Below, piece by piece: positions 36,801-42,800 of a stretch of DNA of 64,000 nt. Each line of letters begins with the position of its first letter. Positions within the stretch are counted from its first letter, which is position 1. The position numbers were made by a program. The DNA is from Okamejei kenojei (Eukaryota): positions 6,882,001 to 6,946,000 of the forward strand of contig CM069158.1 of assembly GCA_035221665.1 (NCBI GenBank). The letters are read 5' to 3'.

Positions 36801-39800
36801 TAGTTGAGGCCTGTTCATTGGCTATATTTAAGAGGGAGTTAGATGTGGCCCTTGTGGCTAGGGGATCAGGCGGTATGGAGAAAAGGCAGGTACGGGATAC
36901 TGAGTTGGTTGATCAGCCATGATCATATTGAATGGCGGTGCAGGCTCGAAGGGCCGAATGGCCTTCTCCTGCACCTAATTTCTATGTTCTATGTTCAAGA
37001 AATGAATGGACAGGATTGTTATAGTTTTCTAATCTACTTAGAAATATATCGATGCGGCTATCATGTACCATGTAACTTGGGAACCCCTGGTGCCAATGTT
37101 ACATGGGGATAAGTTGAAGTATTGATTTAATATCTGCTTTAGTGAATTAGGGGGAGTTGAGAAGTTGGATGAATTGGTTTAGAGCAAGGTGATGCTAAAA
37201 CGTGGAATATCTTGTCACAACTGACGAACAAAGAAAAATCTGTTGCAGCATCCTAATTTGAGGAAGGACATTTTTGCTATTGAGTGCAGCGTAGGTTCAC
37301 AAGGTTAATTCCCGGGATGGCGGGACTGTATTCATGCCTACTATATTCTGTTGTGCTGAAGCAAAGCAAGAATTTCATTGTCCTAGCTGGGACACAAGAC
37401 AATAAACTCTCTTGACTTGACTGTCATATGATGAAGGAATGGAGCGACTGGGCTTGTATTCACTGGAATTTAGAAGGACAATAGGGTATTTTATAGAAAC
37501 ATATAAAATTATTAAGAGATTGGACACGTTAGATGCAGGAAACAGTTCCCGATGTTGGTAAAGTCCAGAACCAGGGGCCACAGTTTAATAATAACGGATT
37601 TGGCCATTTACTACTGAGATGAGGAAAAAACTTTTTCACAGAGTTGTGAATTTGTTGAATTCTCCGTCTCAGAAGGCAGTGGAGAATGCTGTGGAGAATC
37701 ACAGATGCATTCAAAAAAGAAATAGATAGAGCTCTTAGGGCTAGCGGAATCAAGGGATATGGAGAGAAGGCAGGAACAGGGTACTGATTGTGGATGATCA
37801 GCCATAAGCACATTGAATGGCGGTGCTGGCTCGAAGGGCTAGATGGCCTACCTCTGCACCTATTGTCTTCGTAAGTATCTATGTATCAATAATAGGAAAT
37901 TGTGACCACATGGAAGCAAATATTAAGAGCAAGGAGGTTGTATCGATATAGGCAATTCCAATATAACAAGCACAATTCTCAATATAACAAACAAAATTTC
38001 AATGTGCTTGTTTCGGTGTGCTAACACCTTTTGCATTTAACAGGAACATGCCAGTTTTAACTGCTATTGCAGCCCATTATGCAAGCATCCATTATCTTTT
38101 CAAAGTTTTACTTGATTTGCTTAATATTTGACAATCTTGTAATTGCTGACCACCTTCTTGCAGGCTGCAGCAAGACACGTTTACAAGAATGCAATTGACT
38201 GGTGTGTGGCTCTAATTGATGACTATCGAATTAGAAGAGGTGAGTTGAAGGGTTTTGAAGTGTTATTGTGGTCTTTTTTTCCTTCAATCCAATTGTTCGG
38301 AGCTATAAATATTTCTAGATGTCATTTGGCTTTAATTTGACAATCAAAAGATTTTAATTTGTACTACTTTCATTTAAGGTACTAGTTTGGAAATAACTTT
38401 TAAAATTTAATTTAGTTTGGAGATGTGAAGGCGTCTATAACGCGAAGTTATTCAGTTGCTGACTTGATTAGTATTAAAATAAAATTTGTCCACTTGACTG
38501 TATGTATTGAACTTTCTTGGCAGGTTGTGGGTCCTTCACAGGTTCCTTTGTTGAATATTGTACAGCTGAGCTCAGTAAGTATTTTTGACTTTGGAATGTT
38601 ACCGTTTTAAGTGACCCATGGTTCAATATATTCTACAATGTGGTGAGTTGAATTGAACACCACCTCATGTTAATTGGATTTTGTTTTTGTTTATAATTAA
38701 TGGGAAGTTTGTAAATCATTTTTCTCTAGACTTTATATGATTAGTATTTTAGTTCTCTTTGGCTTGGATCTAAGTTCGCCATCTCGGGAGCAATGTTGTG
38801 TTGTGTATTTGGGTGCTTAGACTTAAATAAGGCTCGGACACGGGAGTAAACTAACAAGCCTCTTTATTCCAGGACGTCACCTTGAGTCTCCCTCGCGCAT
38901 GCGTCCTTGCACAAGACATCACATATGCTAATTATATCACATACCTAACACTCCTCCCCCTTTTACTTGGAGGCAGGTAACACCATTTCTATTACATACC
39001 TAACACTCCTCCCCCTTTAACTTGGAGACTGGTAACACCATTTCTATTACATGAACCGGACTCCTCCCCTTTAAGTCAATTTCACCTGCATGGTATATGC
39101 TCTTAACTTGACATTTCATTGATTGCTGTTTGAATACACTGTTGCAAAATAGTATTATTACATTCATCTTACAATGCATCCTCATAACTGTAATAATCCT
39201 ATCTAAACCAGCACTTATAATTTTTTCCATCCACCCATCTTCCTTAAACTAAATACATTGCCCCTTGCTTTGTGTTATCATTTTCAGTTCCTTTATGTGT
39301 AACACTTTCTAATCACTCTAGCTCGACCTGTATCTCTGCTTCTTCCCTTTTTACATGTCCTAATCTAATTTGCAAATTTCTTCCTGTTCCTGATATTCTG
39401 CGTTTCTTTTTTTTTGGTTCATGTATTTGTTTTGTTTTCCTCTTTGTAGGTGGGATTTGACCTATGGCTGCAAGTTTTCGTTTTCCAGCAGCTTCCTCTG
39501 TTCAATTTCCATTTGCTGCGTATTTATCTGCTCTTGTTGTTTAATGAGATTCTGCAATGCATAACCATTTGTCCATTGCTCAGTGAAGGAGGCTCCATGG
39601 TGGACTATACAGAAGCGTCCTAATCGCAATCGGTCCTGCATACTTTTGTCTTGACCGACAAGCCTCTCTTCTTTAGACTTTTCTATTAGCAGCTTTCTAC
39701 TCGTTGTCACACATTTATTTAACCTTTCTTTGTATCATTTAAGCCTTTTCTGTTGTTCATCTATTTGTCCACTTACATCTCTGGTTTTTCATCATGAAGT

Positions 39801-42800
39801 AAGATCTATATTGTCTTTGCAATACAACGGTGGCTTTGATTTGTGCTCTGTATAATTTTCTTGTTTTATAAGCACGGTAGTGAGACTGCACTATAACTGC
39901 TGTATAATTCAGTTTGAGGAAGTCTTTCCTATATCGTTTAAGCCTTTTGTATCGTTTCAGCCTTTTCTGTTGTGCCTCTATTTGTCCTCTTGCGTCTTTC
40001 CTATACCAACTCATACGGAGTACTGACTGAACTTTTACAGTAGCTCTCTGTTGCTTAACCCACTGCCTAACCACCATACTCTTGTAGGCAGCCTGAATGG
40101 TAATAGTTGTATCCCATATTGACTGATGTTGCACAAACTGGGAATGCCCTATTTTGCATGCTTTGTACCATCTCTGGATCGAAATGACTGCTTGTCCCAT
40201 AGCTCTGTAGCGTACCCTTAATCGGTAACCACGGTATGTAGCTTGCAGAGTGACTACAGCCGCCTTTTACATCAAGAAATGCTTTCTTGTAATGCACATC
40301 CTTATGAATGACTTAATATGGCGTGCTGCCTTGATTTTCTCAACCAATACTCTGGGTTTGATCCCGCGGTATAAGACCTGAATACAAACCACTGCTTTTC
40401 TCAAACTATTATGTCTCACTTGGACATTTCTTATTTGGCAAGCTCTGTATCGTTGCTGTATCGCAATGGCAGACCAGCGTAGTTTCTTGAAATACTGATG
40501 CTGGTTATGCATCTGATAATAAGTCTGTATGACCTTGGCAGATTTGTGCATGCACCGCAATTGCCTTCGAACATGCATTCCTCGGTAGGCAGCCTGAAGC
40601 AGCACAACGCGGCTGCGTACCTTCATGTAGGTTTTGCGATCACTTTCCATTTGAAGGTGTGCCCTATAATGGGTTTGTACTATTATAGCTGCCAATCTCC
40701 TTGCCTTGTATTCACGGTATACTCTGTGCATTATAAATGCTGCTTGTATTACCGTTGATGCCTTCTGTTTGTTCCAGACCTCTCTCTGTACCCTTCATAC
40801 CCTTGAATACAGCTTGAATAATTAGGGTTGCCCTCTGGATGGCAATTTCCCTTTGCCTTTGACTTTTTTCCTTTGCCTTTTACCCTTGGCCTTTTGCACT
40901 TGACGTTCGTCACTTGGCACTTGACTTTTGTCCTTTGAGGGACTCCCTGCCCTCTTTAGTTCGGGCTCCATGCCTCTGGATGCCCTTGGAGGTTTTGGAG
41001 AGAAATGAGCCATTTAATGCCTCCTTACACTCCTCGTAAGTTTTATCCGTGGGCTTTGCTAGCCGCAGTAACGTACGTAAGGTGTGATAACCCTCTCTTC
41101 ATAAGCCTAATATGAACCATGTTCTCCTCTGCAGTGATATCATTGGAAATGAACGAAGCCTCCAAGACTTCAGTCCATTTCTCAAAATTACACCCAGAAT
41201 CTAACTGGGGCAACTTTTCTACCATTTGAAAAGCCATGCTACCTGTTGCTATTCAGGTGCCCTATATTCTGTTCTCTCGCTGTGTTTTCTGCCCTGGACT
41301 TAATCCTTTTACATTCTAAGAGATTATCCATCTCACTGACTATTACTCATTCTTATAATAATAGATTTATACAATTAACCAACATTTCATGTTAATAGCC
41401 AACTACAACATTGTAAACCATATTCCTTCTATGCGCACAGATTTACTATTAATAACAGTGACCAATGCATTACATCCAAACAGTCCTGCTTTTACTTGAA
41501 GTAATAGTGAACAATGCATTACATTCAAAGAGGGCTTTTATTGTGAAGGATTTCACCACTCCAGCTTGTCGGCCTGTGGACTCTGGTGCATCCTCGACCT
41601 CTCTGATTCTCAAGAGGTTCTCCCAAAGACACTTGCTTTTGCTGCTGGCCTCCCCGGACCTCAGCGTTACTTTTAAATTCTGCTGGCCACTCCAGACCTC
41701 CGATGTTGCTGCTGGCTCAGCCGTTGCTGTTGCCTCCGCTGGCTCGTAGCCAAGTCGACACCCGCTGTTCCACTGACTTGCCTGCTGTCTCCCTTGGACG
41801 CCCTGTGGAAGGTAAGTCGCTGCTCATTACTGCTGCTGGTCCCCGCTGCTCCAAGCGTCGAGAATGTGGCTGGCTCAGAGATGCCAAGTGTCCCGGATTC
41901 GCCGTATTTTATCCCGGCGAAATAAACTTTTTACGGTGTTCTGGCAGCCAAACATGCTGTTACGGAACACCGCCGCGCCGGTGTTCCTCCCGTGGTGAAC
42001 ACCGGCGCCATGTCCTGGGGGAGGGTTGCCGGGCCCCAGTGGCCGCGCGTGCGCAGTGGGGGAGGGTTGCCGGGCCTGGCGCCATTTCGAGCCACGCCAC
42101 GCCCGGCCCAGAGCCCGGGCGGCGCCGGCCCGCGCGATCAGCGGCACTTTCTTGCCGCCAGCCGGCCGCTCGCGGCAGCCCCATCACCGGGCCTCCCCCC
42201 CCCCCACCCCCACCCAGTGCGCAGGCGCAGACCCGCCGGCAACCTTGCCAAGTGCGCATGTGCCGCACCCGCCCGCCGGCAGCCCGCTGATCTGCACCAG
42301 TGCGCAGGCGCATAGCCGCCGGCAACAACCCCAGGTGAGTATGTTACGGAGAGAAATGCATTTAACCCCATTTGTTACGGACAAATGGGTTAAATGTTAC
42401 TGTGAACTAAATTTAGGGTTGGCATCTCTGCATATACCCCCTCATTCCCTGCACTTCCATGTGCCTGTCTACAAGCCTCAAACCACTATTGCATTTTCCT
42501 CCACCACCATCCCTGATAATGTATTCCAGGACTCCACTTCTCTCTGTTTGTAAAAAAAAAAGCTCCATTAAACGTTCCCCCCCCTCTCACCTGGCAGCTA
42601 TGCACTCTAATATTGGACATTTAGACCCTGAGATAAAGGATCTATCTACCTTATCTCTGCCTCTTATAATTTCTCAAGTCTCCTCAAACTGATGTTCCAG
42701 GGAAAACGATCCAGATTCATTTAACCTCTTTCTAAAGCTGAAACCCTCTATTTCAGGCAGCATTCTGGTAAAGAATCATTCTTTGTGCTTCCAAAGCGTC

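What the first reader, a model, noticed from the sequence alone, without database searches (positions are those of the whole stretch)
38794..41875. Gypsy-like LTR element carrying about 1 kb of captured ASPM-like IQ-repeat coding sequence
Seen: on the minus strand the order is gag-like N-terminus, a basic ORF, about 1.05 kb of tandem IQ motifs (39771-40821), element-like sequence, PPT, then a 157-bp TG...CA LTR, all antisense within a PWWP3A intron. Established: long, closely spaced IQ arrays of this style characterise the giant exon of ASPM, and LTR elements can transduce host mRNA. Inference: a non-autonomous LTR element replaced most of its pol with ASPM sequence. If this is a multicopy family, it is spreading a calmodulin-binding module, and the host pre-mRNA carries about 1 kb of antisense ASPM-like sequence.
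Basis: partly seen in the sequence, partly recalled or inferred. Interest (0 to 1): 0.82.

Follow-up and report, generated by a model that had tools for sequence, protein, structure and literature searches.

The report
Retroelement relic carrying ASPM and TLK2 pieces
A decayed retrovirus-like mobile element inside an intron of a cartilaginous-fish gene carries pieces copied from two host cell-division genes (ASPM and TLK2) joined to the start of its own coat-protein gene, a rare but already known kind of gene capture.

Summary
The IQ-repeat stretch is real and ASPM-like: Pfam IQ hits, and 8 of 13 protein hits are named ASPM. It lies on the minus strand between a gag-like start and a purine tract plus a 157-bp TG...CA repeat-like end. 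It is antisense in a roughly 33-kb intron of a PWWP3A/B-like gene.

Two things change the picture. The "element-like sequence" after the IQ array is a fragment of Tousled-like kinase 2. It covers residues 209-387 of a 713-aa shark TLK2 and lacks the kinase domain. Also, a 290-aa little-skate protein (P0134) has the same gag-like start, linker and IQ array in one open frame, so the fusion is shared by at least two loci.

Several claims are not supported. "Gypsy-like" is unsupported because no pol is present. The LTR has no second copy in the window. Gag homology is only a lead. The copy has no 5' LTR and its reading frames are broken. Copy number could not be counted.

Verdict: partly supported, and a new member of a known kind (host-mRNA capture by an LTR retroelement).

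The parts
38794..38950 (-). LTR-like end: 157 bp, starts TGTT, ends AACA, holds a TATA-like stretch, TGACGTC and AATAAA. It is a single copy.
   Evidence: Read directly. No second copy by self-blastn or by local alignment against shuffles (score 16 upstream against a shuffle mean of 18.6; whole-window best 32 against a shuffle maximum of 33).
38935..39074 (-). Tandem array of a 55-bp unit, 2.6 copies. Each unit holds the purine tract (PPT-like) and the first bases of the LTR-like end.
   Evidence: D3; TRF: period 55, 87-93% matches. Purine-run statistics.
39075..39275 (-). Unassigned internal stretch between the TLK2-like piece and the purine tract.
   Evidence: No Pfam family. Atlas gave nothing usable. 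CpG o/e is 0.11 over 38951-39275.
39276..39779 (-). TLK2-derived stretch, one broken part. It matches residues 209-387 of a 713-aa elasmobranch TLK2 (the coiled-coil region) and stops before the kinase domain (residues 407-684). It is contiguous, so intron-free.
   Evidence: PDB 5o0y_A TLK2, E=4.9e-29. 1147 hits, with the top 8 rows all elasmobranch TLK2 at 80% identity. Bounds and break counts (4 frameshifts, 2 stops, 124/179 identical). Kinase domain bounds.
39780..40887 (-). ASPM-like IQ array, one broken part. It has 11 IQ cores. Its second half holds a second copy, about 65 nt long, of the first bases of the TLK2-like stretch.
   Evidence: Direct repeat (D4, 87%). One stop in the 345-codon main frame, plus a change of frame near its start.
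40888..40986 (-). Linker: a short relic of a 7-residue tandem repeat that the relative P0134 carries about 13 times.
   Evidence: short-period repeats at 40846-40902.
40987..41237 (-). Gag-like N-terminal stretch, one broken part. It starts at the ATG at 41237 and matches residues 1 to about 88 of P0134.
   Evidence: P0134 75% over residues 1-40; P0136 62%. (colinear in 3 frames). (P0134 residues 1-258 = window 40441-41237, with 2 frameshifts and 3 stops over gag-like stretch, linker and first IQ motifs). Pfam DUF7041 reaches only E=0.12. Atlas DUF7041 clusters score 0.94-0.95 and gag families 0.88-0.91.
41238..41875 (-). Leader-like stretch upstream of the ATG. The 5' limit of the element is not established, and no 5' LTR or convincing primer-binding site was found.
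41661..42420 (.). CpG island lying where a 5' LTR would be expected. Over 41880-42390 the GC content is 0.68 and CpG o/e is 0.95. Its relation to the element is unknown.
   Evidence: Internal short repeats (D7, D10).
7938..8093 (+). Host gene: open stretch holding part of the PWWP3A/B N-terminal domain. Bounds run from stop to stop and are not exon bounds.
   Evidence: PF20887, E=0.0053, below cut-off.
10691..12043 (+). Host gene: 451-codon open stretch whose start matches the end of the PWWP3A/B N-terminal domain. Bounds run from stop to stop.
   Evidence: PF20887, E=0.0095, below cut-off. No PDB match.
45741..46208 (+). Host gene: open stretch holding the PWWP3A/B C-terminal domain. Bounds run from stop to stop.
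   Evidence: PF20886, E=1.4e-38.

Best explanation
This is a decayed copy, lacking its 5' LTR, of a non-autonomous LTR-type retroelement of a cartilaginous fish. The internal region of the family is not pol. It is a chimaera: about 88 codons of a gag-like gene, a short tandem linker, about 1.1 kb of the IQ array of ASPM, and about 0.5 kb of the coiled-coil region of TLK2. An unassigned tail, a purine tract and the LTR-like end follow.

The most likely origin is the one known for retroviral transduction. Host mRNAs were packaged with element RNA, and reverse transcriptase switched templates, giving a cDNA with element ends and host insides. Such an element has no enzymes of its own and would have to be copied by the proteins of an autonomous relative.

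Shown here: the chimaeric order, the sense orientation of both host pieces, the absence of introns, poly-A or target duplications around them, and the same gag-linker-IQ junction open in frame at a second locus. Inferred: template switching, copying in trans, and the LTR class.

The copy in the window cannot code for anything or move. It lies antisense in a host intron, where its AATAAA does not face the host transcript.
For: - IQ array is ASPM-like. Searches give Pfam IQ. In one search, 13 hits among 526 candidates include 8 named ASPM and 3 more with the ASH or CH domains of ASPM. In one search, 13 of 13 hit only this stretch. Searches show the same 23 / 26-27 spacing as ASPM-named proteins.
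- TLK2 piece. One search gives E=4.9e-29 to PDB 5o0y_A. In one search the top 8 rows are all elasmobranch TLK2 at 80% identity. In one search, residues 209-387 map to 504 contiguous bases. One search places the kinase domain at 407-684, outside the piece.
- Shared junction. P0134 (290 aa, named by NCBI as an ASPM homologue of Leucoraja erinacea) runs gag-like start, linker and IQ in one open frame. It is colinear with window 41237-40441. It is 82% identical over 76 IQ residues, against 48% to the best ASPM-like protein.
- Gag lead. The Atlas nearest clusters are DUF7041 (0.94-0.95), then Retrotrans_gag, DUF4939, Ty3_capsid and DUF1759 (0.88-0.91). Pfam DUF7041 scores E=0.12.
- 3' end. The purine tract abuts TGTT...AACA, which holds AATAAA. 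The tract and the first LTR bases are tandemly repeated.
- A piece of the TLK2 start is repeated inside the IQ array, as repeated template switches or recombination between copies would leave.
Against: - No second LTR exists in the window, so the LTR is not verified by pairing and no target-site duplication can be read.
- No primer-binding site could be recognised, and no tRNA genes are in the window for comparison.
- No pol or other retroelement Pfam domain lies within 38794-41875.
- Gag homology is below every curated cut-off. Of the 4 hits in 1.84 billion representatives, none carries a gag or retroelement Pfam domain, and 2 look spurious.
- A purine run followed by TG is common: 12 in the window.
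- A CpG island, not an LTR, lies at the 5' side.
- Only one other locus is known (among 3079 candidates of 159-508 aa, only P0134 itself). It could be the orthologous locus in another species.
Confidence: 0.6

Rival explanations
1. It is a host gene or pseudogene family, not a mobile element. Under this reading, a gag-derived (domesticated) exon became fused with ASPM and TLK2 pieces and is driven by its own CpG-island promoter. The window holds a dead paralogue or orthologue of the skate gene that encodes P0134, and the purine tract and TG...CA end are chance.
For: - P0134 is annotated as a protein-coding gene with isoforms and is open for 290 codons.
- A CpG island with o/e 0.95 lies just upstream of the leader, in a window whose overall o/e is 0.48.
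- No paired LTR is present.
- Purine run plus TG is common.
Against: - The window copy is broken many times.
- Both host pieces are intron-free and in the sense orientation, directly followed by a purine tract, TGTT...AACA and AATAAA.
- The N-terminal stretch looks most like retroelement gag families.
- The gene name of P0134 was assigned by similarity and is not evidence of function.
Confidence: 0.2
2. It is one old insertion, not a family. Under this reading the window and the Leucoraja locus are the same insertion inherited by two species, so nothing has spread.
For: - Only one relative was found.
- The species of the window is not known.
- The divergence between the two (82% in the IQ part, 75% over the first 40 gag residues) could fit old orthologues.
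Against: - The linker length differs greatly between the two loci (about 13 repeat units against a short relic).
- P0136, a third gag-like fragment of 48 aa and 62% identity, exists in the protein library.
- The search tools on hand could not see unannotated copies, so absence of further hits is weak evidence.
Confidence: 0.15
3. These are nested, independent retrocopies. Under this reading an ASPM retrocopy and a TLK2 retrocopy, made by LINE machinery, each landed by chance inside an older LTR element.
For: LINEs are abundant in the window (RVT_1, Exo_endo_phos_2).
Against: - Neither piece has a poly-A tail, LINE tail or target-site duplication.
- The two pieces abut directly, and a bit of the TLK2 start recurs inside the IQ array.
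- The gag-linker-IQ junction is in frame and shared with P0134.
Confidence: 0.03

Closest known systems
Host-mRNA capture by endogenous retroviruses of crocodilians: KIT-ligand, and nectin3 in CrocERV31 (PMC4299795; passages read)
   Same: A vertebrate LTR-type element carries intron-free host coding sequence in place of its own genes, and more than one genomic copy shares the capture. The paper says capture usually costs internal coding domains and leaves the element unable to replicate by itself.
   Different: In crocodilians, whole ORFs of one gene were captured, pol was kept and the LTRs are paired. Here there are fragments of two genes, no pol and an unpaired LTR-like end. The fragments are fused to the first roughly 88 gag-like codons, and the class of the element is unknown.
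Acutely transforming retroviruses with gag-host fusion genes (recalled from general knowledge; no call)
   Same: The architecture matches: a truncated gag is fused in frame to host cDNA, pol is lost and the 3' end is kept. The accepted mechanism is co-packaging followed by template switching.
   Different: Those are exogenous, carry catalytically active growth genes and depend on a helper virus. Here the pieces are an IQ array and a coiled coil without the kinase domain, fixed in a germ line and decayed. Nothing here shows any effect on cell growth.
Gene-fragment capture by plant LTR retrotransposons (seen only as search listings and abstracts: PMC13317346 and 10.1101/777037; Bs1 of maize is recalled)
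   Same: Non-autonomous LTR elements carry pieces of several host genes. Possible antisense or small-RNA cross-talk with the parent genes has been discussed for them.
   Different: Those are plant elements of known Gypsy or Copia class with paired LTRs. This is a cartilaginous-fish element of unresolved class.
ASPM (abnormal spindle-like microcephaly-associated protein)
   Same: It has an IQ array with the same 23 / 26-27 residue spacing, and the best named hits are ASPM.
   Different: Only part of the IQ array is present. No ASH or CH domains are found. Identity to ASPM of other species is 35-48%. ASPM of this species could not be fetched, because only proteins of up to 2000 aa were searched.
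TLK2 (Tousled-like kinase 2)
   Same: It is 69% identical over residues 209-387 of a shark TLK2, and 80% over the best 83 residues.
   Different: It has no kinase domain and its reading frame is broken.

Membership tests
LTR retroelement (any class) | Two long terminal repeats in direct orientation | tested here: not met
   The 157-bp end has no second copy in 64 kb. Self-blastn found none. Local alignment scored no better than shuffles.
LTR retroelement (any class) | LTR with TG...CA ends and a polypurine tract directly 5' of the 3' LTR | tested here: met
   Read: a purine tract is followed by TGTT...AACA. The evidence is weak by itself, because 12 purine runs of 13 or more bases followed by TG occur in the window.
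LTR retroelement (any class) | Primer-binding site next to the 5' LTR, and a target-site duplication | tested here: inconclusive
   There is no 5' LTR, so there is no place to read either feature. No tRNA genes are in the window.
LTR retroelement (any class) | gag gene | tested here: inconclusive
   No Pfam family is above cut-off, and DUF7041 scores E=0.12. The Atlas points to DUF7041 and gag families. The AlphaFold model was too poor to use (pLDDT 46.7). None of the 4 library hits carries a gag domain.
Ty3/Gypsy | pol with protease, reverse transcriptase, RNase H and integrase in that order | tested here: not met
   No such domain lies between 38794 and 41875. The element therefore cannot be filed as Gypsy, BEL, Copia or retrovirus.
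Gene-capturing (transducing) retroelement | Host coding sequence lies inside the element, in sense orientation, intron-free, with no poly-A or duplication of its own | tested here: met
   That 179 TLK2 residues span several exons in the source gene is inferred from general knowledge and was not tested here.
Gene-capturing (transducing) retroelement | The same element-host junction is present in more than one locus | tested here: met
   P0134 of Leucoraja erinacea shares the gag-linker-IQ junction. Orthology of the two loci is not excluded. The IQ-TLK2 junction has been seen only in the window.
ASPM | ASH domain, CH domains and a long IQ array | tested here: not met
   Only the IQ array is present. 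This is a fragment derived from ASPM, not an ASPM gene.
TLK2 | Coiled-coil region plus a C-terminal protein kinase domain | tested here: not met
   Only the coiled-coil region (residues 209-387) is present. The kinase domain (residues 407-684 of P0014) is absent.

The most novel reading that the evidence does not exclude
Skates, rays and perhaps sharks may carry an expressed family, derived from a retroelement, that encodes a fusion of a Gag N-terminal domain, a calmodulin-binding IQ array of ASPM and the dimerising coiled coil of TLK2. At some loci the fusion would be kept open by selection and driven by a CpG-island promoter. It would be a germ-line fossil of a double transduction of two cell-division genes, built like the gag-host fusions of transforming retroviruses.
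Probability: 0.12. Interest if true: 0.75.

Novelty: new member of a known kind. Interest (0 to 1): 0.45.

Why it matters
Capture of host mRNA by LTR-type elements is common in plants but has few documented cases in vertebrate germ lines.

This case joins pieces of two cell-division genes to a gag start. It gives a dated natural record of reverse-transcriptase template switching. It would also show that such chimaeras can persist and be annotated as genes: the skate relative is named an ASPM homologue.

There is a practical point too. Gene predictions named "ASPM homolog" in elasmobranch genomes may be element-borne fragments, and this can mislead studies of ASPM evolution.

Whether the antisense ASPM- and TLK2-like sequence in the host pre-mRNA has any effect depends on its nucleotide identity to the real genes. 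That identity could not be measured here.

Tried and rejected
- **Second LTR.** Self-blastn of 38700-42400 against the window and a local alignment of the 157 bp against both strands with shuffles found nothing.
- **RNA families and tRNAs.** Rfam on 38000-43500 at E up to 1 gave 0 matches. ARAGORN on the window gave 0 tRNAs.
- **Promoter scan.** The bacterial promoter/terminator scan does not apply to this genome, so I ignored it.
- **Structure of the gag-like start.** The AlphaFold model of the first 101 residues of P0134, from a 3-row alignment, had mean pLDDT 46.7. That is too poor for a fold search, so none was run.
- **Unassigned stretches.** The Atlas search on the stretch before the purine tract gave no usable lead. 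PDB searches on a leader ORF and on the 451-codon host stretch gave 0 matches.
- **Cluster members.** The listing of cluster members for P0134 and P0136 could not be made because the database was switched off.
- **Spurious hits.** I rejected P0135 (GOST_TM domain) and P0137 (bacterial repeat protein) as chance hits.
- **Alternative 5' LTR.** I considered that the CpG-rich stretch is a diverged 5' LTR. I rejected this because the two LTRs of one insertion are made from the same template, yet the stretch shows no similarity at all to the 157-bp end.
- **Literature.**
  - A search for ASPM, retrotransposon, IQ repeat and captured found no paper on such a capture.
  - A search for Leucoraja, LTR retrotransposon and gene capture found none.
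  - A search for DUF7041 returned 0 papers.

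
Full report
**Source and scope.** The window has no N, and its CpG o/e is 0.48. I do not take it for human, for three reasons:
- The captured TLK2 piece is closest to shark, skate and ray TLK2.
- The only close relative of the fusion is a little-skate protein.
- The window holds a DIRS-like element and LINEs with a GDSL esterase domain.

The species itself was not determined. The host gene was searched open stretch by open stretch. I left out the step of joining its exons.

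**The observation.**
- Pfam IQ matches both open stretches (E=5.5e-13 and 3.3e-08).
- The main frame of 345 codons has one stop and 11 IQ cores. Their spacings are 23 (5 times), 26-27 (3 times) and other (2 times).
- Proteins named ASPM show the same spacing habit.
- A search restricted to proteins of 308-2000 aa gave 13 hits among 526 candidates. Eight are named ASPM. Three more carry the ASH or CH domains of ASPM. Two have IQ only, one of them with a Sushi domain. Identities are 35-48%.
- Full-length ASPM is longer than 2000 aa and could not be reached, so identity to this species' own ASPM is unknown.
- All 13 proteins hit the window only within 39745-40887.

**What follows the IQ array.**
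- The open stretch matches PDB 5o0y_A (TLK2) at E=4.9e-29.
- It gave 1147 hits among 1305 candidates. The top 8 rows are all elasmobranch TLK2 at 80% identity.
- A frameshift-aware alignment that returned counts and bounds only puts residues 209-387 of a 713-aa Mustelus TLK2 on window 39276-39779. It shows 124/179 identities, 4 frameshifts and 2 stops.
- The kinase domain of that protein is residues 407-684, so it was not captured.
- The piece covers 504 contiguous bases for 179 residues and therefore has no introns. That the source gene splits this region into several exons is general knowledge and was not tested here.
- About 65 nt of the start of the TLK2 piece occur a second time inside the second half of the IQ array, at 87% identity. 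I read this as a trace of repeated template switching or of recombination between copies. This is inference.

**What precedes the IQ array.**
- The ORF at the ATG at 41237 found four proteins among 1.84 billion representatives. Two look spurious (a GOST_TM protein and a bacterial repeat protein).
- P0136 is a 48-aa fragment at 62% identity.
- P0134 (290 aa) is 75% identical over residues 1-40. It reads, in one open frame, the same start, then about 13 units of a 7-residue repeat, then IQ motifs.
- NCBI names P0134 [quoted passage not shown], on a 113.5-Mb contig.
- P0134 is colinear with window 41237-40441 across three frames, with 2 frameshifts and 3 stops on the window side.
- Its IQ part is 62/76 = 82% identical to the window. 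Its best match to an ASPM-like protein of another species is 47/98 = 48%.
- The fusion of gag-like start, linker and IQ array is therefore shared by at least two loci and can be open.
- The search for further annotated relatives of 159-508 aa found only P0134 itself among 3079 candidates.

**Is the start gag?** It is only a lead.
- No Pfam family reaches its cut-off, and DUF7041 scores E=0.12.
- The Atlas puts residues 1-95 of P0134 nearest to DUF7041 clusters (0.94-0.95, with 171-180 shared features). Next come clusters with Retrotrans_gag, DUF4939, Ty3_capsid and DUF1759 (0.88-0.91).
- An AlphaFold model shows four helices but has mean pLDDT 46.7, so I ran no fold search.
- My impression that the motif pattern is typical of retroelement gag N-termini is recalled and rests on no call.

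**The 3' end.**
- A purine tract abuts a 157-bp stretch (38794-38950) that starts TGTT, ends AACA and holds a TATA-like stretch, TGACGTC and AATAAA.
- The tract, with the first bases of that stretch, is repeated 2.6 times as a 55-bp unit.
- This fits a polypurine tract and a 3' LTR. However, the stretch has no second copy in the window.
- Purine runs followed by TG are common: 12 out of 54 runs of 13 or more bases.
- No pol domain lies between the ends.
- At the 5' side there is no LTR. Instead there is a CpG island at 41661-42420, with o/e 0.95 over 41880-42390.
- The class "Gypsy" therefore cannot be tested, and the 5' limit is open.

**Context.** The PWWP3A/B-like host gene runs on the plus strand.
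- Pieces of its N-terminal domain lie at 7938-8093 and at the start of 10691-12043. Both are below Pfam's cut-off but are colinear.
- Its C-terminal domain lies at 45741-46208 (E=1.4e-38).
- The element lies antisense in the intron of about 33 kb between them.

**Mechanism.**
- I favour capture of two host mRNAs by template switching during reverse transcription of an LTR-type element. That would give a family without enzymes of its own, copied in trans.
- The window holds a dead copy that lacks its 5' LTR (confidence 0.6).
- Passages of PMC4299795 describe the same kind of event in crocodilian endogenous retroviruses.
- The gag-host fusions of transforming retroviruses and Bs1 of maize are recalled.
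- The rivals are a host gene family with a gag-derived exon and its own promoter (0.2), a single old orthologous insertion (0.15), and nested independent retrocopies (0.03).

**Novelty.**
- I found no paper on an ASPM- or TLK2-carrying element.
- The kind of event is already known, so I rate this a new member of a known kind, with interest 0.45.

**Left open.**
- Copy number.
- Paired LTRs and target duplications elsewhere.
- The class of the element.
- Selection on the copies.
- Expression.
- Whether the antisense host-like sequence in the pre-mRNA matters.
- Cluster membership of P0134, which could not be looked up.

Noticed in passing
window 41661-42420: A CpG island (GC 0.68 and CpG o/e 0.95 over 41880-42390), with short internal repeats and GCGC(A/C)TGCGC-like motifs, lies directly 5' of the element's leader on the minus strand. 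A similar motif is present in the 157-bp LTR-like end. It may be a promoter, and its relation to the element is unknown.
   Followed up: partly
window 33836-37868 (+): A LINE with GDSL-lipase-like, endonuclease (Exo_endo_phos_2) and reverse-transcriptase domains. Its 3' part is present twice in tandem about 880 bp apart, at 82-85% identity (D1, D2, D5). GC skew is strongly positive here.
   Followed up: no
window 61045-63839 (-): A DIRS-like retroelement remnant. It has reverse transcriptase (E=1.1e-19), followed by weak matches to the tyrosine-recombinase (Phage_integrase) and SAM-like domains. It is cut by the end of the window.
   Followed up: no
window 17122-22790 (-): LINE remnants with two RVT_1 pieces and a match to Pfam ALKBH8_N (E=5e-10, 19902-20330). 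A 343-codon open stretch here has no Pfam family.
   Followed up: no
window 45122-45406 (-): A reverse-transcriptase fragment (RVT_1, E=2.1e-11) lies just upstream of the host exon that holds the PWWP3A/B C-terminal domain.
   Followed up: no
window 9521-10460, 13021-14580, 27181-27740: Further CpG-island-like stretches. The one at 13021-14580 is full of overlapping open stretches on both strands with no Pfam family.
   Followed up: no
protein P0134 (Leucoraja erinacea): A public gene model named as an ASPM homologue is in fact a fusion of a gag-like start, a 7-residue tandem linker and an IQ array. Such models could mislead surveys of ASPM in cartilaginous fishes.
   Followed up: partly
window 48148-48312 (+): A weak match to the helix-turn-helix domain HTH_23 (E=0.006, below cut-off). 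It may be a DNA-transposon remnant.
   Followed up: no
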